From the UHGV virus genome UHGV-0104572: a stretch of 11,433 nt of DNA. One strand, 5' to 3'. This stretch comes from a virus. The first letter of the stretch is position 1, and every line of letters begins with the position of its first letter. The notes below the pieces were generated by a model, which worked only from the letters and a program-made list of their open reading frames with translations, ran no database searches and had not been told where the DNA came from. This document shows, piece by piece, positions 50 through 11,383 of this stretch. Both the position numbers and the translations under genes were made by a program.

Positions 50-2068
50 TTACATTACTGTAATAATAAAATCCAAATCAACATTGGCACCTGTATTATT
101 AAATGTCTTAACCGTAATTGAATAGTCTGAATCCCTTGAGAAACTTGAATATCTACCAGATCCTCCAAACAATGTAATATTTGGAACGAGTGTTGAAACG
201 TTAAATGTAAAATCTATCTTATATGTTCCTGATGACAGTCTAGATACATTTGATATGTTCTGAGCTAATGAATAAGCACCTGTAGATGAAATATTTGCTC
301 TTGCAGATACCAACCCTTGGCTATTTCTCTGAACTTTTTCCAATCCAGAATATGGTGATTTCATTGAATTTTGGTTGCCAAAGTCTGTAAAAACAAGATG
401 GCTAACACCAAAAGATGAAGGGACGACAAATTGCACTTCTTTAAATGCAGATTCAGCAGAAGCACCAGTGTTAAGAAAACCATTTCCCATCATATTCAAA
501 TAACATTGAACACCAGAACTGAGATCTGATTGATTTGACTGTACTATAACTCTAGATGCGCTAACGGAATCTAAATTATAGTTAAATATTGAATTATTTA
601 TGTTAATAATTTGATTTAAGTTTCTGTTTATGTAAAAACTCACATCAGAACCAGTATTTGATTCGAAATAGCAATTATCAATTGTTGCTGCGACACGACC
701 TGCACCACCAATCAACGCAAACTGTACGCACGAATTAAATGCAATTGGGGTCCCGTTGGAATATGATTTCCCTCCATTTGCTTCAAACGTACAAGTGTCA
801 ATTTTCCAAGCGTGTGCGTGTTGGTTTTCGATACAAAATTCAGCATTGTACTGAAAATCACAGCGTGAAAGTCTTATTGAGTTTGGTCCTGACACTTCAC
901 CAAGTCTTCCTTGTATTGCTGTTTTGTTATAAGTAAATCTACAATTGTTAAACTCAAGATATAATGAATCTTTCAGTTTACACCCAATCTCAAAGCCATC
1001 TATCAGAACATTCCTCATTGAAAGCCTGATGCATTTGTTTATATTTAATCCAAATCCTGACCAGTCAGATCTATTGGCACTTGAATCTACAGATCTGATA
1101 GTGAGGTTTTCTATGGGGAATGATGAAAATACTGAAAGAGAGCCATCAAGATAAATCCCGAAATTATTCTGCGAAGTTTCTGAAGCTAGTATATTTACTA
1201 TTGATAACTTTTCGTCAACACCTCTTATATAAGCTACTTTTCCACCTTCTCTCTGGTGTATTGGTATTGATACTGGTGATTTTAAATTTATAATATTGCC
1301 TGGTAAAACGACCCCAAGCCCAAGAACTCCGGCGGCTGAAATGGCCTTCCTTAGATTTGGTGATAAGTCCAAGTTATCATCAGGATTTCCATGCATACCA
1401 TACATTTCACCTGTGATTTCTTTGATGTCTCTTCTAACCCAACAACCGTTTGATGATGGATGTTCATCTCCAACTCCGTTTACATAGTCTGATACATATG
1501 CATCTCCAATATATGGAACTGATGGTGATATTATACACCCTCCGTCATGCTTCGACCTTATTATGCTGTCATTAAACTCAAAAATACCACCACCACCACT
1601 TCCATCTCGATACCATGACTTTAGTAAAACCTTATCTCCATTATTAGATTCCATTCCATAAAAATCAGATACAGCACCCAACTCACCAACTAAATTAAAA
1701 CCACCTTTACTAGATAATTCCTCTCTTAATTGATCAGGGTCATACTTCAGCACATTCGGAAAATAGAACTGCTTAGCACCATATGCATCATAAACAGCCA
1801 TAGAATGGCCTTGCACGGTAACGAATTTGGCAATCTGTCCGTTATATACCGGATATCCAGCAGCGTTAATGATGATTGGTTGCGAAACAGGAACGTGAGA
1901 TCCGTCTTCGTTCTCCACATAAACCTGAATCTGGTTTTCAGGATTTACCGGGTCAGTGTCAATTTTACCGATATAAATTTTGCCATTGGCTACAGCTTTA
2001 AAAGAACGAGCCATAGTGAAGAGTTGCGAAGGCATGCTCACTACAACATTAGCTGTAATGTCTGTCAT
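50..2068 (-). CDS. Tailspike protein: P22/HK620-type N-terminal head-binding domain, divergent C-terminal receptor-binding domain
   Basis: 672-aa ORF. The first ~115 aa ([11 protein letters not shown]...[11 protein letters not shown]...NVLKYDPDQ) match the conserved P22 gp9 / HK620 tailspike head-binding domain as I recall it. The rest is G/N/S-rich with NxS/T repeats, typical of a beta-helix, but does not match the P22 or HK620 receptor domains I remember. GGAG lies 8 nt upstream of the ATG at 2068. Confidence 0.85.
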
Positions 2069-2168: not shown

Positions 2169-3092
2169 TCAGTAGTTATGTACTGAAGGAGGTAATTCTT
2201 TATTCTTAAGTCTCATCCATGCGGAAAGATTCGTTGGTCCGTCTGGCTCATTAATATCAACATCTCGTGTGTGGTTTATTAAAACGTCTCTCGCCATTCC
2301 GATAACATACGAGAACTTATGACCGTAGTCGTAGCATCTGCCGGAATAGTTCGATTGAATTTGTTTTAGCGCCGGATACAGTTCGCGGAATAATGCCTGC
2401 GAACGGTTGGCATAATCCCATAACCATACAAGGCTGTTTGCTTCTTTTGCAGAAAGCTCGTTGGTTTTCTTCTCTTGTTTGCCAATGAACTCACCTTCAA
2501 GTGGAACTCGAGCTGCAAGTGATAGTGCTTCGGTAAACTGCTCCTCACTGATTTCTTTGTACGAACATCCAAAATGGGATTTTAGTGACGACCACATGGT
2601 GATCATCGCCTTAGCCTGTTTTTCTTTTGGCAGAGACTGACCGCGACTCATGACGAGTTGTTTAATGGCTTCCTGCTGTTCAGTGGTGATTTTACCCGGC
2701 AACGCTTTTTTAGCTTTGCGTGGGTTAACTACATGGCCTTTAGTCCAGTACTCGTATAGCACATCGTCACACTCTTCTTGATACTGGATTACATTGTCGC
2801 GGATTTCAGGGCGGACTTTGTTAGGGCTGATGGTTTGCAACCAGCCATTCAGTTTACGTAAAGCAAGGCAAATCATGGTCTGCACACCGCCAACTGAAGG
2901 TATTGCGATTTCCACAATTCCTTTAGCAAATCTTTGTTTTAACTTTGTAAACTGTGAAGCCCAATCCATACCCATTCCCTCAACGATAGGTTTCATTGGG
3001 GTGTACGGCTCACCGTTGTGATTGACAACATAAAGCTCTGCGCCGTGGAATGGTACATTGATAGTAGATACTGCTGTTGCTATACTTTTCAT
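2169..3092 (-). CDS. ant: Antirepressor Ant (P22 immI-type)
   Basis: 307-aa ORF directly downstream of arc on the same strand, the same order as P22 arc-ant-gene 9. The N-terminus (SIA..A..T..VPF.G.E...) resembles what I recall of P22 Ant and AntA-type antirepressor domains. AGGAA lies 8 nt before the ATG. Confidence 0.7.
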
Positions 3093-4980: not shown

Positions 4981-6198
4981 CTACTGCCGGGTCGCTTCGT
5001 TAGCTAAGAGCGGGCGCACGGCAGTAGCAGCCTGATTTAGCGCTCTTTCATAAGCTGGCGTTCCAGCTTTAGTGTTTGCCAGACGTAAGAGCGCATTCCT
5101 TGCTGCTTTGGACTCATACAAACGCATCATTGCACCAAAACCAGCCTCAAGCCCCATTGATACTCCAAGAGTCGCAGTTGCGCCAATCGTCCTTATCCTG
5201 TTGGCTTGTGATTGCCCCGTCTGAGTTACTACATTTGCGGTGTCTGACCTTGCTGTTTGCTGTAGAACTTCATGAAGAGCATCGAGCTCTTTCATGTGCT
5301 TTCCAGAAAAAATAGTGTTGTAAATTTCACCGCCTGACTGAGATTTAAGCTTATTAACTTCAGTGATGAACTTGGCTGGAGAGTCACCGGCCTTTTCCGC
5401 TATTTTGCTGACGTAAGCTGCACGCATAGCATCTTTCCCTTTATCATCCAATGCGCTCCAGATTCGTTTCACGTCAGATGGTTTTCTGCTTAATACAACG
5501 GTATTTATAAGTTCAGGACTGGCTTCACTGCTTGCCTTGTTGAGCTTGTTAGCAATGTTTTTATTAAGCACCTTATTATAAACGTTTGCATAATCTGAAT
5601 TTGCTTTAAGGTATTTTGCTGCGTCTGATGCACCGAGGTTTTTAGCAACTGCGTTACGAAGGTCTTTTGACATTGCATTCTCTACCATATTGGTAGCTGC
5701 TTTTGCCTGGTTGGGGAAGACCATAGCATCTCCCTGAACATTAGATCTAAATGCTGTTCTGTGCTGACGCAAGAGATCAAACGTAACATCCAAATCAGTT
5801 GCAGGGTTTGCTAATTCTTCGCGTAGGTTACGCAAGGATGTAAGCAGGCTTTGATTGGCAGACGTCCCAAGCCGTTCCTGTCTTGCGATCGCTGTATTCA
5901 GAGCATTCATAGTGTTTGTGGTATCAACTGCGGCATTCCCCATTTTATTGGTGACGTCATTGATAACAGCGCCAGCGGCATCCTTCCGTCCCCTTAACGT
6001 GGTGGTCAGAGATTTCACCACATCATCCGGGTTGTACTCACCAAAACGGTCAAAATAATTACTTACCAACTTACTACGCGTTGCATATTGCTCCGCTCGC
6101 TTTGAGCCTGTCCCGAGCAAAGCCCCCTCGGCATTCGGGATGGCTGCATTTTGCGGTAAGCACGAACTCAGCCAGAACGACAAACAAAAGGCTATCAA
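4981..6198 (-). pseudogene. DNA ejection protein gp16-like, N-terminally truncated remnant
   Basis: 405-aa Ala/Asn/Lys-rich ORF on the same strand as the tailspike, immediately distal to the sieA-like gene, which is the position of gene 16 in P22. The first ~20 codons are antisense to the Q fragment, so the homologous part probably starts near 6130. Identification is by synteny and composition only. Confidence 0.4.
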
Positions 6199-6475
6199 CT
6201 ATCTGATGCAATTTGCACACAAGGTATCGGGGAAATACCGTGGTGTGGCAAAGCTCGAAGGAAATACTAAGGCAAAGGTACTGCAAGTGCTCGCAATATT
6301 CGCTTATGAGGATTATTGCCGTAGTGCCGCGACGCCGGGTGCAAGATGCAGAGATTGCCACGGTACAGGCCGTGCGGTTGATATAGCCAAAACGGAGCAG
6401 TGGGGGAGAGTTGTTGAGAAAGAGTGCGGAAGATGCAAAGGTGTCGGCTATTCAAGAATGCCAGCAATCAGCTAA
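6131..6475 (+). pseudogene. Q: Antiterminator Q (lambda-type), internal fragment
   Basis: [51 protein letters not shown]...CRDCHGTGRAVDIAKTEQWGRVVEKECGRCKGVGYSRMPA matches the central part of lambda Q as recalled. The N-terminal ~50 aa and the C-terminal part are missing, and the strand is inverted relative to what a collinear prophage would have. Confidence 0.8.
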
Positions 6476-6670: not shown

Positions 6671-6967
6671 TCAGAATTGCATATCAATTTGCTTAAAATC
6701 CTCGGTGGCGGCCGGGGATTTTTTCTTTGTGATTCCATCCAATGCATACTTAAAAGCCCTGCTAATCGGACTGATGTCTGATGCCATTCCGAAAGCACAC
6801 AAGACCGAAGCAATAAACCTCCAGTCCGTTCTGCTTATCTTCGATTCATGACAGCCAATCATCTTTGCCAGACCGCGCTGGGTAAGCGTTGACAGGTTGA
6901 TGAGTAAATCAGTTTCAGCGCGATCAATTTCTCGCTGTGTTGGCTTGCTATAACTTGCTTGTGTCAT
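6671..6967 (-). CDS. cII: CII-like transcriptional activator
   Basis: 98 aa. The helix-turn-helix segment LAKMIGCHESKISR parallels lambda CII AEAVGVDKSQISR, and the C-terminus KKKSPAATEDFKQIDMQF parallels KKRPAATERSEQIQMEF. It sits downstream of cro on the same strand. Confidence 0.8.
   Translation of the reverse strand: MTQASYSKPTQREIDRAETDLLINLSTLTQRGLAKMIGCHESKISRTDWRFIASVLCAFGMASDISPISRAFKYALDGITKKKSPAATEDFKQIDMQF
6945..6958 (+). promoter_or_regulatory. CII-binding direct repeat TTGC-N6-TTGC (PRE -35 region)
   Basis: TTGCtataacTTGC overlaps the 5' end of cII and points toward cro and cI on the plus strand, as PRE does in lambda. Confidence 0.55.
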
Positions 6968-7051
6968 TTGTTAATTTTCCAATAGTGAATAGTTAGTTGA
7001 AAGGTATGCGTGGAAACGCATATGGCCTTAGTTGGTCAGATATCTTGGGGC

Positions 7052-7097
7052 TCGCTTTGTCAGCGACGTAGGACGAATGTCCATTGTGAAAAGAGCG
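7052..7097 (-). promoter_or_regulatory. nutR: boxA-like CGCTCTTTT plus boxB hairpin with GACAA loop
   Basis: Minus strand has CGCTCTTTT (plus 7089-7097; consensus boxA is CGCTCTTTA) and UCGCU-GACAA-AGCGA (plus 7052-7066), between cro and cII. The loop is the P22-type GACAA rather than the lambda GAAAA. Confidence 0.6.
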
Positions 7098-7104
7098 GTG
7101 TTAC

Positions 7105-7305
7105 TTATGCAGTTGTTTTTTTGTTACTTGGGAAGGGCTTTATTTCTTCCGCATAAACGCTTCCATCAGCGTTTATAGTTAAAAAAATCTTTCGGCCTGC
7201 ATGAATGGCCTTGTTAATCGCGCTTTGATATACGCCGAGATCTTTAGCCGTCTTGGTTTGCCCAAAGCGTATTGCATAATCTTTCAGGGTTATGCGTTGT
7301 TCCAT
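7105..7305 (-). CDS. cro: Cro repressor
   Basis: [66 protein letters not shown], 66 aa, is lambda Cro with about two conservative substitutions. TAAGGAGG precedes the start. Confidence 0.95.
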
Positions 7306-7329
7306 ACAACCTCCTTAGTACAGGCAACC

Positions 7330-7399
7330 ATTATCACCGCTAGAGGTAAAATAGTCAACACGCACGGTGTTAGAAGTTTATCCCTTGCGGTGATAGATT
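7330..7399. promoter_or_regulatory. OR1-OR2-OR3 operators with divergent PR and PRM promoters
   Basis: OR1 7332-7348 is TACCTCTaGCGGTGATA on the minus strand, one G>A change from lambda. OR2 7356-7372 and OR3 7379-7395 match lambda exactly. PR on the minus strand: -10 GATAAT (plus 7330-7335), -35 TTGACT (plus 7353-7358). PRM on the plus strand: -10 TAGATT (7394-7399); the cI ATG is at the expected leaderless start. Confidence 0.9.
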
Positions 7400-7402
7400 T
7401 AA

Positions 7403-8119
<717 letters not shown>

Positions 8120-8150
8120 TTGTTTTATTTTTCACGTAATAGGATGATTT

Positions 8151-8492
8151 ATGACACAATTTCAACTTGCATTAATCGCTAGAGAAGTTGATGGAGAAGT
8201 CATCCATCTTCGCACCAAAGACGGATACATCAATGCCACCGCGATGTGCAAGTCTGCGGGGAAGCTACTTGCTGACTATACACGACTAAAAACAACACAA
8301 GATTTTTTTGATGAATTATCACGCGATATGGGGATTCCCATATCGGAGTTAATTCAATCATTTAAAGGCGGAAGAGCAGAGAATCAAGGGACTTGGGTTC
8401 ATCCAGACATCGCAATTAATTTAGCTCAGTGGCTATCTCCAAAATTTGCAGTGCAAGTATCGAGATGGGTGCGTGAGTGGATGTCAGGTTAA
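8151..8492 (+). CDS. KilA-N domain protein in the rexAB slot
   Basis: 113 aa; AGGA lies 6 nt before the ATG. The segment GYINATAMCKSAGK...GTWVHPDIAINLAQWLSPKFAVQVSRWV matches my recollection of the KilA-N signature (GT[WY]VHP..A...A.W.SP.F...V). It starts 31 nt after the cI stop, where lambda carries rexA. Confidence 0.65.
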   Translation: MTQFQLALIAREVDGEVIHLRTKDGYINATAMCKSAGKLLADYTRLKTTQDFFDELSRDMGIPISELIQSFKGGRAENQGTWVHPDIAINLAQWLSPKFAVQVSRWVREWMSG

Positions 8493-8531
8493 AGAGCGCC
8501 TGCCGAACTCCCTATCCACCTTAAGCGGTAT

Positions 8532-8910
8532 ATGACAAACCGAGGCAGAGTTCCTCATACGCACTTTTCTATGCTTAATGAACTGACGTTTAACTTGGTT
8601 GCGCCACTTGAACAGGCCGGATATACGCTGCCAGAAAAAATGGTCCCTGATATTTCAGAGGGTAGGGTTTTCTCGCAATGGCTCCGTGACAACCGGGGGG
8701 TTGAGCCGAAGACATTCCCAACATATAACCATGAGTACCCAGATGGCCGGACATTCCCGGTACGTCTATACCCAAACGAATATTGCAGATTTCAAACAAT
8801 ACTTCAACGAAGTGTGGCTGCCTCAGTACGCTCCTAAATATTTTGCTGAACGAGACCAAAGGGCATTGACGTTGATTGAGAAAATCATGCTACCTGACCT
8901 TGATTCCTAA
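8532..8910 (+). pseudogene. Unknown ORF with a frame break (frame 0 for 8532-~8780, frame +1 onward to 8910)
   Basis: Two overlapping ORFs (8532-8837 and 8599-8910) each look protein-like only in complementary halves: ...RTFPVRLYPNEY in one, ADFKQYFNEVWLPQYAPKYFAERDQRALTLIEKIMLPDLDS in the other. The break is near 8778-8786, not at a homopolymer. The first half is in the same frame as the KilA-N ORF, separated by a single TAA and 13 open codons. Confidence 0.5.
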
Positions 8911-8918
8911 ATGTTATT

Positions 8919-8944
8919 CCCGGCCACAGAGCCGGGTTTTCTTT
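8919..8944 (+). terminator. t_imm-like rho-independent terminator
   Basis: cccggc-cacaga-gccggg followed by TTTTCTTT, 9 nt after the stop at 8910. Sequence from here to OL matches the lambda rexB-to-OL interval as recalled. Confidence 0.7.
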
Positions 8945-9096
8945 GCCTCACGATCCCCCTCACCCAAGAACACATAACCAATTGTATCTATTTGAAAATA
9001 AATAGATACAACTCACTAAACATAGCAGTTCAGATCTCTCACCTACCAAACAATGCACCCCTGCAAAAAATAAATTCATATAAAAAACATACAGAT

Positions 9097-9167
9097 AACC
9101 ATCTGCGGTGATGAATTATCTCTAGCGGTGTTGACATAAATACCACTGGCGGTGATACTAAACACAT
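9097..9167 (+). promoter_or_regulatory. OL3-OL2-OL1 operators and PL promoter
   Basis: OL3 9097-9113, OL2 9117-9133 (tatctctAgcggtgttg, one G>A versus lambda), OL1 9141-9157 (exact). PL -35 TTGACA 9131-9136 and -10 GATACT 9154-9159, reading rightward. Confidence 0.9.
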
Positions 9168-9227: not shown

Positions 9228-9242
9228 GCGCTGACAAAGCGC
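9228..9242 (+). promoter_or_regulatory. nutL boxB (P22-type)
   Basis: GCGCUGACAAAGCGC is a 5-bp stem with a GACAA pentaloop, identical to the P22 nutL boxB as I recall it. It lies ~65 nt downstream of the PL start. I did not find a boxA upstream. Confidence 0.7.
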
Positions 9243-9370
9243 AATAACCAAAGTGAACTTTGGGGTGAATGCAGAAGCTAACCTTCTCGGCGGAGGCGCT
9301 TTGCAATGATTACGCTACCGGAGTTAGTCGCCCGGCTGTATTCACCGCCAAAGTTCACCAGGAGGTCTAT

Positions 9371-9538
9371 ATGACACGCAGAACTCAGTTCAAAGGCAAT
9401 TCACGTTCTCGTCGTCGTGAGCGTTTAAAGGCAAAGGCATTAGCTAACGGCGTACTGGCCCGCGAAGAAGCAATAAGTTCAGAAGTATTACACCGCCCTG
9501 CGCCATCATCAATGTTGCGGCGATCGGCATCACCTTAA
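9371..9538 (+). CDS. N-like antiterminator, C-terminally truncated (55 aa)
   Basis: AGGAGG lies 6 nt before the ATG at 9371. The arginine-rich motif GNSRSRRRERLKAKA resembles the P22 gp24 motif GNAKTRRHERRRKLAIE. Full N proteins are ~100 aa; the last ~15-30 codons here are recT-derived DNA read out of frame. Confidence 0.6.
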   Translation: MTRRTQFKGNSRSRRRERLKAKALANGVLAREEAISSEVLHRPAPSSMLRRSASP

Positions 9539-10236
9539 ACCCAGCCAGCAAACTTGCTTATCTAGTTCCGCGCGACGGCATGGTTTGCCTTGATATCAGT
9601 TATATGGGATTGCTCCATATTGCAATGGAGTCTGGTGTTATCTCATGGGGTCAGGCAAAACTTGTTCATGCTAACGATACCTATGAGTCAAACGGGCTTG
9701 ATAAAGCACCAACCCATAAATACAACGCCTTCGGTGATCGTGGTGATATCGTTGGCGTTTACTGCACAGTTAAGACGCCAGCAGGTGATTATCTAACGGA
9801 AGAGATGAGTCTGGCTGAAATTGAGGCTGTAAGGAAAACAAGCAAGGCGGCATTCAGCGATAAAGGACCATGGGTAAATCACTGGAATGAGATGGCGCGA
9901 AAGACGGTCGTAAAGCGTGCAAGCAAGTATTGGCCTAAGGCATCACGTCTTGATAGTGCTATTCACGTACTAAACGAAGAAGAAGGTGTATGGACTGAAC
10001 CAGTTATGCCGTACAAATCAGAGGAAGATATCCGCGAAGATGAACGGAAACGCCAGCAGGAAATAACGGATAAAGCACAACTTCTTTGTGATGAAATGGC
10101 TCAGGCAGAAAACATGGATGATTTGAAGCGATATTTTGCAGAAGCATATCGCCTGACATCTGGAATGAAATTGCAGCATAACGTACAAGCCATTTACATA
10201 GAATGCAAAGCGAAACTGGAGGTTGCCAGTGAGTAA
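9448..10236 (+). pseudogene. recT: RecT-family recombinase, 5'-truncated remnant
   Basis: The frame is open from 9448. CAIINVAAIGITLNPASKLAYLVPRDG aligns with E. coli RecT SAIVQCSQLGLEPGSALGHAYLLPFG, and KGPWVNHWNEMARKTVVKRASKYWPKA with NGPWVTHWEEMAKKTAIRRLFKYLPVS. The N-terminal part is absent and there is no start codon or RBS for the homologous region. Confidence 0.65.
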
Positions 10237-10774: not shown

Positions 10775-11383
10775 CGGCGACAAGGCCATATAACAACAAA
10801 CCCTGTCGCTGCCACTCGCGCAGCAAAATCAGAGGTAAGGAGATCAAGACTTACGGCTGACGAATACCTGAAAATTTATCAAGCAGCAGAATCATCACCA
10901 TGTTGGCTCAGACTTGCAATGGAACTGGCTGTTGTTACCGGGCAGCGAGTTGGTGATTTATGCGAAATGAAGTGGTCTGATATCGTAGATGGATATCTTT
11001 ATGTCGAGCAAAGCAAAACAGGCGTAAAAATTGCCATCCCAACAACATTGCATGTTGATGCTCTCGGGATATCAATGAAGGAAACACTTGATAAATGCAA
11101 AGAGATTCTTGGCGGAGAAACCATAATTGCATCTACTCGTCGTGAACCGCTTTCATCCGGCACAGTATCAAGGTATTTTATGCGCGCACGAAAAGCATCA
11201 GGTCTTTCCTTCGAAGGGGATCCGCCTACCTTTCACGAGTTGCGCAGTTTGTCTGCAAGACTCTATGAGAAGCAGATAAGCGATAAGTTTGCTCAACATC
11301 TTCTCGGGCATAAGTCGGACACCATGGCATCACAGTATCGTGATGACAGAGGCAGGGAGTGGGACAAAATTGAAATCAAATAA
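10775..11383 (+). pseudogene. int: Integrase (lambda Int-type) remnant, C-terminal catalytic domain only
   Basis: From ~10784 the frame reads GHITTNPVAATRAAKSEVRRSRLTADEYLKIYQAAESSPCWLRLAMELAVVTGQRVGDL...HLLGHKSDTMASQYRDDRGREWDKIEIK, about 98% identical to lambda Int from residue ~168 to the end, including the catalytic Tyr in SQYRDD. An in-frame TAG at 10772 and unrelated upstream sequence replace the arm-binding and core-binding domains. Confidence 0.9.

What the first reader, a model, noticed from the sequence alone, without database searches (positions are those of the whole stretch)
8490..8790. KilA-N ORF and downstream ORF look like one decayed ~250-aa gene (single in-frame TAA plus a +1 frame break)
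The KilA-N ORF (8151-8492) and the next ORF (8532-) are in the same frame, separated by one TAA (8490-8492) and 13 stop-free codons. Protein-like sequence then continues in the +1 frame from about 8778-8786 to 8910. This could be a recently inactivated two-domain protein, a sequencing or assembly error in an intact gene, or a genuine split into two genes. The break is not at a homopolymer, which argues against programmed frameshifting.
Basis: seen in the sequence. Interest (0 to 1): 0.6.

Follow-up and report, generated by a model that had tools for sequence, protein, structure and literature searches.

The report
Dead BstA phage-defence gene in prophage
The two adjacent open reading frames are the wreck of a single 253-residue prophage anti-phage defence gene (BstA family), killed by one premature stop codon and one 2-base deletion; the damage is real and common in gut bacteria, so this is an ordinary pseudogene.

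Summary
Window 8151-8910 is one gene broken twice. G->T at 8490 turns Glu114 (GAA) into TAA. A 2-bp deletion between 8782 and 8785 shifts the frame after Tyr211.

Undoing both changes restores a 253-aa ORF that differs from the intact E. coli D5 / phage PhiR5_2 protein only at H218Y. The intact protein has an N-terminal KilA-N domain and a C-terminal BstA_C domain. It sits directly downstream of the lambda-type cI repressor and ends at an intrinsic terminator. That is the published architecture of BstA, a prophage abortive-infection protein.

The lesions are not sequencing errors. The identical 760-bp double-lesion allele occurs in all 10 loci retrieved by its exact 113-aa product, in 2 complete E. 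coli genomes (a third carries both lesions plus more) and in 9 IMG/VR contigs. The exact 113-aa product is indexed in 1,970 blocks of public assemblies.

Intact alleles are under strong purifying selection (dN/dS 0.04), and about 2,700 homologues are almost all single ~250-aa proteins. The window itself is a heavily deleted cryptic prophage.

One oddity remains: the same Glu114->TAA change occurs on other allelic backgrounds. Recombination, recurrent mutation and selection for a KilA-N-only product cannot be told apart. Verdict: a real but ordinary pseudogene of a known family.

The parts
7406..8119 (+). Lambda-type cI repressor gene (237 aa, HTH_3 + Peptidase_S24), intact. The broken gene lies immediately downstream and is co-oriented, so it is presumably co-transcribed from the repressor promoters.
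   Evidence: ORF list. Annotated as LexA family/cI in identical loci. Pfam labels.
8122..8184 (+). Leader and first 34 nt of the gene (-29..+34), the position where the anti-BstA (aba) self-immunity DNA element lies in phage BTP1. It includes the Shine-Dalgarno AGGA at 8141-8144. The window lineage carries a derived G>A at 8159 here. Whether this stretch acts as an aba element is not shown.
   Evidence: aba position from PMC8585504. The leader is conserved behind unrelated repressors. No terminal direct repeat like the BTP1 CCCGCC was found.
8151..8489 (+). Codons 1-113 of the ancestral gene: a complete KilA-N (APSES-like) DNA-binding domain. This is the only part still translatable as in the ancestor; RefSeq annotates it as WP_227164514.1.
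8490..8492 (+). Lesion 1: premature TAA. Ancestral GAA (Glu114), G>T at 8490. It falls in the inter-domain linker.
   Evidence: Alignments A1 and A3. In the AF2 model the linker is coil at 113-121, the lowest-pLDDT internal block.
8493..8783 (+). Codons 115-211 of the ancestral gene, still in the original frame: linker and first two thirds of the BstA_C domain. It contains the ATG at 8532 that ORF finders use as a start.
   Evidence: PADLOC BstA HMM covers residues 120-237 of the intact protein.
8782..8785 (+). Lesion 2: site of a 2-bp deletion (ancestral GAATATCTTGCAG, now GAATATTGCAG). The frame shifts after Tyr211. The old frame then reads 17 unrelated residues (CRFQTILQRSVAASVRS) to a stop at 8835-8837.
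   Evidence: Alignments. Translations.
8785..8910 (+). Codons 213-253 plus the native stop (8908-8910), now in the +1 frame. This is the C-terminal helices of BstA_C with invariant or near-invariant residues D214, F215, H218 (here Tyr, C>T at 8800), F219, W223, Y231, F232.
   Evidence: Precomputed PF26567 BstA_C hit on this ORF in identical loci.
8919..8946 (+). Intrinsic terminator (CCCGGC-CACAGA-GCCGGG followed by a T-run) that closes the cI-bstA transcription unit. It is shared at 95-98% identity with the immunity-region terminator of HK and Stx lambdoid phages.
   Evidence: Terminator scan. Matches annotated 'immunity region | terminator'.
9131..9159 (+). PL-type early-left promoter (TTGACA-17-GATACT) with lambda OL-like operator sequence. 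It marks the far edge of the cI-PL cassette slot.
   Evidence: Promoter scan. Sequence.

Best explanation
Window 8151-8910 is a pseudogene of a BstA-family prophage defence gene.

**The ancestral gene.** It encodes one 253-aa protein with an N-terminal KilA-N/APSES-type DNA-binding domain (residues ~8-112), a short linker, and a C-terminal BstA_C domain (~122-252). It occupies the variable cassette slot between the cI repressor gene and PL of a lambdoid prophage, where lambda carries rexAB. It has its own Shine-Dalgarno sequence and ends at an intrinsic terminator.

**Inferred function.** By inference from the characterised BstA of Salmonella phage BTP1, it is expressed in the lysogen together with cI. 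It then aborts infection by other phages by blocking their DNA replication. A DNA element at the start of the gene (aba) spares the prophage's own replication.

**What happened in this allele.** Two mutations destroy the protein. G>T at 8490 makes Glu114 a TAA stop in the inter-domain linker. A 2-bp deletion at 8782-8785 shifts the frame after Tyr211, removing the conserved C-terminal helices. A third change, H218Y, hits a near-invariant residue. Only a 113-aa KilA-N-only polypeptide can still be made, so the defence function is presumably lost.

**Where the allele lives.** It is inherited and widespread. It occurs in loci whose early regions look complete and in decayed prophage remnants; the window is one of the latter.

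**Shown:** the lesions, their reality, the ancestral ORF, the domain architecture, family homology, purifying selection on intact alleles, and the cassette context.
**Inferred:** co-transcription with cI, the abortive-infection activity of this untested subfamily, and loss of function.
For: **The lesions and the ancestral ORF**
- The window differs from the intact 762-nt gene of E. coli D5 by G>T at 8490, a 2-bp deletion, and two SNPs. Phage PhiR5_2 encodes the identical 253-aa protein.
- In-silico repair gives a 253-aa ORF.

**The lesions are real**
- The identical 760-bp allele is in EC2641 and 1008S19. Strain 81 carries both lesions plus further ones.
- It is in 10 of 10 loci retrieved by the exact 113-aa product and in 9 IMG/VR contigs.
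- The product is seen on >=1000 contigs and in 1970 index blocks.

**Family**
- PHROG 6287 'BstA abortive infection system', E=1.8e-82, full length.
- PADLOC BstA, E=2.5e-20.
- BLASTP to BstA-BTP1 C-domain, 29% identity, E=5e-15.
- Pfam KilA-N, E=1.7e-27. PF26567 BstA_C is precomputed on homologues.

**Architecture and context**
- The gene lies directly after cI, is co-oriented with it, and is followed by a terminator. This is as described for bstA (PMC8585504).
- Among homologues, 2748 hits were found and nearly all of the top 120 are single ~250-aa two-domain proteins.

**Selection and structure**
- Intact alleles have dN/dS 0.038.
- The AF2 model (pLDDT 90.6) puts residue 114 in the linker and residues 209-252 in helices of the C-domain.
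- The lost segment holds invariant residues F215, F219, W223, Y231, F232.

**Continuing decay and cryptic context**
- Daughter alleles carry extra indels in the C-part: strain 81 and L055.
- The surrounding element has truncated N, RecT, integrase, Q and gp16 genes.
Against: - No member of this short (253-257 aa) subfamily has been tested experimentally, as far as the searched literature shows. BLASTP identity to BstA-BTP1 is only 29% and limited to the C-domain.
- The local Pfam copy did not report BstA_C on the intact protein. That label comes from precomputed annotations.
- An aba element cannot be recognised by sequence, and no BTP1-like terminal direct repeat is present.
- Loss of function is inferred, not measured. 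The 113-aa KilA-N fragment keeps its ribosome-binding site and could retain some activity.
- The dead allele is about as common as its intact sister allele. The same stop occurs on other backgrounds. This leaves room for the truncation being more than neutral decay.
Confidence: 0.9

Rival explanations
1. Functional truncation. The stop at the domain boundary is retained or selected because the free-standing 113-aa KilA-N domain has a useful activity of its own, for example DNA binding, regulation, or interference with intact BstA proteins. Only the C-terminal part is junk. This rival is compatible with the C-part being a pseudogene. It disputes only 'complete loss of function'.
For: - The stop falls exactly in the linker and leaves a complete KilA-N domain with its ribosome-binding site.
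- The same GAA>TAA occurs on other allelic backgrounds: H6/L031 and L025 with GGC-TAA and an intact C-part, and a Klebsiella protein pair. The gene offers 109 possible nonsense substitutions.
- The truncated product is at least as abundant in public data as its intact sister.
- All extra lesions seen in daughter alleles lie downstream of the stop.
- Owen et al. noted a few natural homologues with only the N-terminal domain.
Against: - Other null alleles truncate inside the KilA-N domain: stops after residues 69, 81 and 93. Inactivation is therefore not confined to the domain boundary.
- Alleles are visibly mosaic, so one TAA patch could have spread by recombination without selection.
- There are too few post-truncation mutations to test constraint on the N-part: one synonymous change against four events downstream.
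- The sampled protein cluster is biased towards lengths of ~113-176 aa.
- No experimental evidence exists.
Confidence: 0.13
2. Sequencing or assembly artefact in an otherwise intact gene.
For: None beyond the a priori possibility. The lesions are small: one substitution and one 2-bp indel.
Against: - The same two lesions, with identical flanking sequence, occur in independent complete genomes from different countries and sources.
- They also occur in ENA gut metagenome scaffolds and NCBI assemblies and in IMG/VR contigs.
- Neither lesion is at a homopolymer.
- They are in complete linkage with two further derived SNPs.
Confidence: 0.01
3. Programmed recoding. Stop-codon readthrough at 8490 plus ribosomal frameshifting near 8783 yields the full-length protein from the interrupted sequence.
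For: The three segments are collinear and together encode the whole protein.
Against: - It would need two separate recoding events.
- TAA-A is an efficient terminator context, and there is no slippery heptamer or homopolymer at GAATATTGCAG.
- Close and distant relatives have an uninterrupted ORF.
- Daughter alleles add further frame-breaking indels.
- No Rfam or structured RNA element is present.
Confidence: 0.01
4. Two genuinely separate genes: a KilA-N gene and an independent downstream gene starting at 8532.
For: - ORF finders and RefSeq call the first ORF as a normal gene. In strain 81, which has an extra 1-bp deletion, RefSeq also calls a downstream ORF.
- There is an ATG at 8532 with a weak SD-like TAAGCGG upstream.
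Against: - The ATG at 8532 is simply Met127 of the ancestral protein.
- The second ORF ends in 17 out-of-frame residues and lacks the conserved C-terminal 42 residues.
- It has no Pfam hit.
- The homologous single-ORF state is the rule across ~2,700 homologues.
Confidence: 0.02

Closest known systems
BstA of Salmonella phage BTP1 (st313-td; Owen et al. 2021, PMC8585504) and its tested homologues BstA-Ec and BstA-Kp
   Same: - Two-domain build: KilA-N(-like) N-domain plus BstA_C C-domain.
- Position directly downstream of, and co-oriented with, the prophage repressor, with its own SD and a Rho-independent terminator in the cI-N mosaic slot.
- HMM-level homology over the full length, and BLASTP homology of the C-domain.
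   Different: - The ancestral protein here is shorter (253 vs 307 aa) and only ~29% identical in the C-domain.
- Its N-domain is a canonical Pfam KilA-N. In BTP1 the domain was found only by remote homology.
- This subfamily is untested experimentally.
- No BTP1-like aba sequence or CCCGCC repeat is present.
- The window copy is broken by a stop and a frameshift.
Intact allele WP_000191544.1 (E. coli D5 and others) = hypothetical protein XSB41358.1 of Escherichia phage PhiR5_2
   Same: - Same gene at the same place behind the same lambda-type cI.
- 99.4% DNA identity over 861 nt.
   Different: - The intact allele has GAA at codon 114, the extra TC, His218, and G at the position equivalent to 8159.
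- It encodes the full 253-aa protein.
Lambda rexAB (abortive-infection cassette between cI and PL)
   Same: - Same genomic slot, with the same logic: a lysogen-expressed exclusion function transcribed with the repressor and closed by the immunity-region terminator.
- The terminator here matches that of HK and Stx lambdoid phages.
   Different: No sequence or domain similarity. RexAB is a two-protein membrane-acting system, while BstA is a single DNA-associated protein (PMC8585504).
Stand-alone KilA-N / APSES DNA-binding domains (e.g. yeast Mbp1 DNA-binding domain, Bqt4)
   Different: Here the stand-alone state arose by truncation of a two-domain protein. No function for the fragment is known.

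Membership tests
BstA prophage abortive-infection proteins | N-terminal KilA-N(-like) DNA-binding domain | tested here: met
BstA prophage abortive-infection proteins | C-terminal BstA_C domain homologous to residues ~156-307 of BstA-BTP1 | tested here: met
- PADLOC BstA HMM E=2.5e-20, residues 120-237.
- PHROG 6287 E=7.3e-50 for the C-part alone.
- BLASTP to BTP1 E=5e-15.
- Precomputed PF26567 on homologues.

In the window the domain survives only as two out-of-register pieces.
BstA prophage abortive-infection proteins | Both domains in one uninterrupted polypeptide | tested here: not met
   TAA at 8490-8492 and a 2-bp deletion at 8782-8785. The feature is met in the sister allele and in nearly all homologues. 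The window copy is therefore a pseudogene of the family, not a working member.
BstA prophage abortive-infection proteins | Located immediately downstream of and co-oriented with the prophage repressor gene, with own SD and Rho-independent terminator | tested here: met
   cI at 7406-8119, gene start 8151, SD AGGA at 8141-8144, terminator at 8919-8946. The gene lies downstream of a co-oriented ORF of at least seven different (repressor-sized) kinds in related loci; two are annotated as repressors.
BstA prophage abortive-infection proteins | Cognate anti-BstA (aba) DNA element overlapping the gene start | tested here: inconclusive
   aba sequences are variant-specific, so they cannot be recognised by similarity. 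The -60..+36 leader travels with the gene behind unrelated repressors, which is consistent with a cis element. No BTP1-like terminal direct repeat was found.
BstA prophage abortive-infection proteins | Blocks replication of infecting phages with an abortive-infection phenotype | not testable with these tools
   Needs plaque, replication and survival assays with the intact and broken alleles.
Programmed recoding sites (readthrough / ribosomal frameshift) | Slippery or recoding signal conserved among relatives that share the interrupted arrangement | tested here: not met
   No slippery motif at 8778-8788. Relatives outside the double-lesion lineage lack the frame break, and most also lack the stop. 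No RNA family hit.

The most novel reading that the evidence does not exclude
The Glu114->TAA truncation may be adaptive rather than neutral decay. It leaves a free 113-aa KilA-N domain expressed with the repressor. That fragment would keep DNA (possibly aba-type) binding and would act, for example, as a dominant-negative or decoy against intact cognate BstA proteins of competing prophages, or as a regulator. This would explain two things. First, the same stop is found on several allelic backgrounds, by recurrent mutation or by recombinational spread. Second, the truncated allele is as common as its intact sister, including in loci whose early regions look complete.
Probability: 0.1. Interest if true: 0.6.

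Novelty: new member of a known kind. Interest (0 to 1): 0.3.

Why it matters
In practice this corrects annotation. RefSeq lists the 113-aa fragment (WP_227164514.1) as an ordinary KilA-N protein and leaves the rest unannotated. In fact the locus is a dead BstA-family defence gene, so defence-system inventories should not count it, or should count it as lost.

Biologically it documents how often this abortive-infection gene is knocked out in Enterobacteriaceae prophages. In unbiased samples about a quarter to a third of close alleles are null: 5 of 22 complete E. coli genomes and 11 of 34 IMG/VR contigs. This is relevant to the cost-benefit balance of prophage-borne defence with cognate self-immunity.

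If the recurrent stop at the domain boundary turned out to be selected, it would point to a function for the free KilA-N domain. It would also give a handle on the still unknown BstA-aba mechanism.

Tried and rejected
- **Sequencing error:** rejected, because the identical allele is in many independent assemblies.
- **Programmed frameshift or readthrough:** rejected.
- **Antisense gene:** the 89-aa ORF at 8590-8859 on the minus strand has no Pfam hit and lies wholly inside the conserved sense-strand coding sequence.
- **Identity with the tested BstA-Ec of E. coli NCTC10963:** not supported. This subfamily aligns with BstA-BTP1 only over the C-domain (29% identity), whereas BstA-Ec is reported as 41.7% identical to BstA-BTP1.
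- **Order of the two lesions:** could not be established. Pattern scans for each lesion returned the same loci, with no intermediate haplotype.
- **Independent recurrence of the TAA:** could not be proven. The haplotype table shows mosaic alleles, so recombination is an equally parsimonious route.
- **Literature:** searches for later mechanistic work or for reports of truncated BstA alleles found nothing relevant.
- **Structure prediction:** It was rerun on the 86%-identical cluster representative P0017.

Full report
**1. Observation**

- An ATG ORF runs 8151-8492 and ends in TAA at 8490-8492.
- The next 13 codons (8493-8531, RAPAELPIHLKRY) are stop-free and in the same frame as the ATG at 8532.
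- That frame runs on to a stop at 8835-8837.
- A +1-frame ORF ends at 8910.
- The frame break lies in GAATATTGCAG (8778-8788), which is not a homopolymer.

**2. What the sequence was**

Megablast against complete E. coli genomes and phage records found near-identical loci. In these, a single 762-nt gene (253 aa) occupies the same place directly behind the same lambda-type cI. Examples are E. coli D5 (WP_000191544.1) and phage PhiR5_2.

The alignment shows that the window differs from that gene by four changes:
- G>T at 8490, turning GAA (Glu114) into TAA.
- Loss of two bases, GAATA[TC]TTGCAG, between 8782 and 8785.
- A synonymous G>A at 8159.
- C>T at 8800, giving H218Y.

All four are derived, because the more distant alleles DY612, H6 and L026 agree with D5 at these positions. 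Reverting the stop and re-inserting TC restores a 253-aa ORF. After the deletion the old frame reads 17 unrelated residues. The authentic last 41 codons and the native stop are in the +1 frame at 8785-8910.

**3. The lesions are real and inherited**

- The identical 760-bp double-lesion allele is present in two complete E. coli genomes: EC2641 (tableware, China) and 1008S19 (river water, Japan). Strain 81 (human stool, China) carries both lesions and has added a 1-bp deletion, a CC>TA change and a 3-bp deletion in the terminator.
- Looking up the exact 113-aa product returned 10 of 10 loci with the same allele, from NCBI genomes and ENA gut metagenomes. The index lists the product in 1970 blocks. 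The cluster table shows it on at least 1000 contigs, against 924 for the intact D5 protein.
- An unbiased motif scan of IMG/VR gave 34 loci of this subfamily: 22 intact, 9 with the window allele, 1 with the stop only, 1 with a different stop at codon 177, and 1 cut by the contig end.
- Scans for each lesion separately return the same loci. The two lesions are therefore in complete linkage and their order cannot be told.

A sequencing or assembly artefact is excluded.

**4. Family**

*Sequence evidence*
- The intact protein matches PHROG 6287, 'BstA abortive infection system, replication inhibitor', over its full length (E=1.8e-82).
- It matches the PADLOC BstA model over residues 120-237 (E=2.5e-20).
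- It matches Pfam KilA-N over residues 13-112.
- BLASTP against BstA of Salmonella phage BTP1 aligns the C-terminal halves at 29% identity (E=5e-15), running through the very segment that the window has lost.
- A search of 5.8 billion proteins found 2748 homologues. Nearly all of the best 120, from many proteobacterial genera, are single ~250-aa proteins carrying PF04383 plus PF26567 (BstA_C).

*Structure evidence*
- An AlphaFold model of the 86%-identical cluster representative is confident (pLDDT 90.6).
- It shows a KilA-N domain at 8-112, a coil linker at 113-121 (the least confident internal stretch), and a C-domain at 122-252 whose last third is three helices at 209-252.

*Where the lesions fall*
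- The stop lies in the linker.
- The frameshift removes helices containing invariant F215, F219, W223, Y231 and F232 and near-invariant D214 and H218.

**5. Context and likely mechanism**

The gene lies 31 nt after cI (7406-8119), is co-oriented with it, and has an AGGA Shine-Dalgarno at 8141-8144. It is followed by a strong intrinsic terminator (8919-8946) that is shared with the immunity regions of HK and Stx phages. Next comes a PL-type promoter at 9131-9159.

This is the architecture Owen et al. (2021, PMC8585504) describe for bstA.
- bstA is a gene downstream of the prophage repressor and is highly expressed in lysogens.
- Its protein localises to replicating foreign phage DNA, blocks replication and causes abortive infection.
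- A 63-bp DNA element (aba), spanning 29 bp upstream and the first 34 bp of the gene, gives the prophage self-immunity.
- aba is specific to each BstA variant.

By inference the ancestral gene here worked the same way. That is not shown for this short subfamily, which is not the tested BstA-Ec.

Intact alleles of the subfamily are under strong purifying selection: dN/dS is 0.038 overall, 0.023 in the N-domain and 0.049 in the C-part. The full-length protein is therefore the functional state.

In the window allele only the 113-aa KilA-N fragment can be made as in the ancestor. The defence function is presumably gone.

**6. The surrounding element**

The window is a cryptic, heavily deleted P22-like/lambdoid prophage.

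| Feature | Coordinates | State |
|---|---|---|
| Tailspike | 50-2068, minus strand | apparently full length |
| Ant | 2169-3092, minus strand | apparently full length |
| gp16 | 4981-6198 | truncated |
| Q | 6140-6475 | inverted fragment |
| cII, cro, cI | 6671-8119 | intact |
| N | 9269-9538 | fragment, joined near 9499-9501 to an internal RecT fragment |
| RecT | 9580-10236 | internal fragment |
| Integrase | 10919-11383 | truncated |

It matches remnants whose neighbours are a pectinesterase gene and, on the other side, an aminotransferase and a PBP-family gene. From memory these are ybhC, bioA and ybhB, that is, the lambda attachment site.

The same dead allele also sits in loci with complete-looking early regions, including full N, replication, nin and Q genes, at another chromosomal site (L011, L013, L016, L017). 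The lesions therefore predate, or are independent of, the decay of this particular remnant.

**7. An unexplained detail**

GAA>TAA at codon 114 is not confined to the window lineage.
- E. coli H5/H6 and IMG/VR contig L031 carry GGC-TAA. They sit behind a different repressor, annotated as an XRE family transcriptional regulator, and their nearest allele is intact. Their C-part is intact and shows mostly synonymous differences from D5.
- Metagenome contig L025 carries GGC-TAA on a mosaic background.
- A Klebsiella pair of 113-aa products lies on a third protein background.

The gene offers 109 different single-step nonsense substitutions, so coincidence is unlikely.

However, the haplotype table shows clear mosaicism. 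H6, for example, looks like an h19-type backbone with a foreign patch at 340-414. Spread of one TAA patch by recombination is therefore as parsimonious as recurrent mutation.

Other null alleles exist as well: stops after residues 69, 81, 93, 175 and 176, and several frameshifts. The general picture is frequent inactivation of this gene.

Whether the boundary stop is favoured because it leaves a free KilA-N domain cannot be decided. Within the window clade there is one synonymous change upstream of the stop against four events downstream, which is too few to test.

**8. Verdict**

The feature is a real, inherited pseudogene of a known defence family in its known genomic slot. It is interesting mainly as an annotation correction and as an example of how commonly this abortive-infection gene is lost. 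The recurrent stop at the domain boundary is the only element with potential for something new.

Noticed in passing
window 8490; loci L009 (H6) 2893-2898, L025, L031; proteins P0004/P0033: The identical Glu114 GAA>TAA nonsense change occurs on other allelic backgrounds of the same gene. Those alleles read GGC-TAA, lack the 2-bp deletion and keep an intact C-part. Some sit behind a different repressor. A Klebsiella protein pair shows the same truncation. Recurrent mutation and recombinational spread could not be separated.
   Followed up: partly
window 8092-8150; L009, L026, L033, L036, L050 upstream of the gene: The ~55-60 bp upstream of the gene travels with it even behind unrelated repressor genes. 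This stretch includes a relic of the 3' end of lambda-type cI (coding ...QWPEETFG*). In the other loci the relic is non-coding. It marks the cassette's left boundary and overlaps the zone where BTP1's aba self-immunity element lies.
   Followed up: partly
window 8151-8492 and identical RefSeq loci: RefSeq/PGAP annotates the 113-aa fragment as an ordinary protein (WP_227164514.1, 'KilA-N domain-containing protein'). It leaves the rest unannotated instead of flagging a pseudogene. It also calls no BstA name for the intact 253-aa protein.
   Followed up: yes
window 9269-9538 and 9580-10236 (junction near 9499-9501): The antiterminator N gene is cut after about 43 codons and joined to an internal fragment of recT (Pfam RecT model positions 60-186). 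In complete relatives about 2 kb separates these points. The prophage cannot run its early-left operon.
   Followed up: partly
window 4981-6475: A truncated gp16-type DNA-transfer gene (minus strand) abuts an inverted fragment of the Q antiterminator gene (6140-6475, plus strand), next to cII. Sister remnants (L010, L015, L018) still hold ~4.6 kb of rearranged DnaB/replication fragments between these points. The window therefore carries an extra internal deletion.
   Followed up: partly
window 9228-9242: Hairpin GCGCT-GACAA-AGCGC between PL and the N fragment. From memory it resembles the P22-type nutL boxB. The N fragment has an arginine-rich motif (RSRRRERLKAKA). Not tested.
   Followed up: no
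window 8800: The window lineage also carries H218Y at a histidine conserved in at least 90% of homologues. This may be relaxed constraint after inactivation, or an earlier hit on the C-domain.
   Followed up: partly
L004 (E. coli STEC383) 1468-2241 and about 117 complete E. coli genomes: A second allele group of the same subfamily (257 aa, ~77% DNA identity) is common in E. coli. In STEC383 it sits next to hokD rather than directly behind a cI-type repressor.
   Followed up: no
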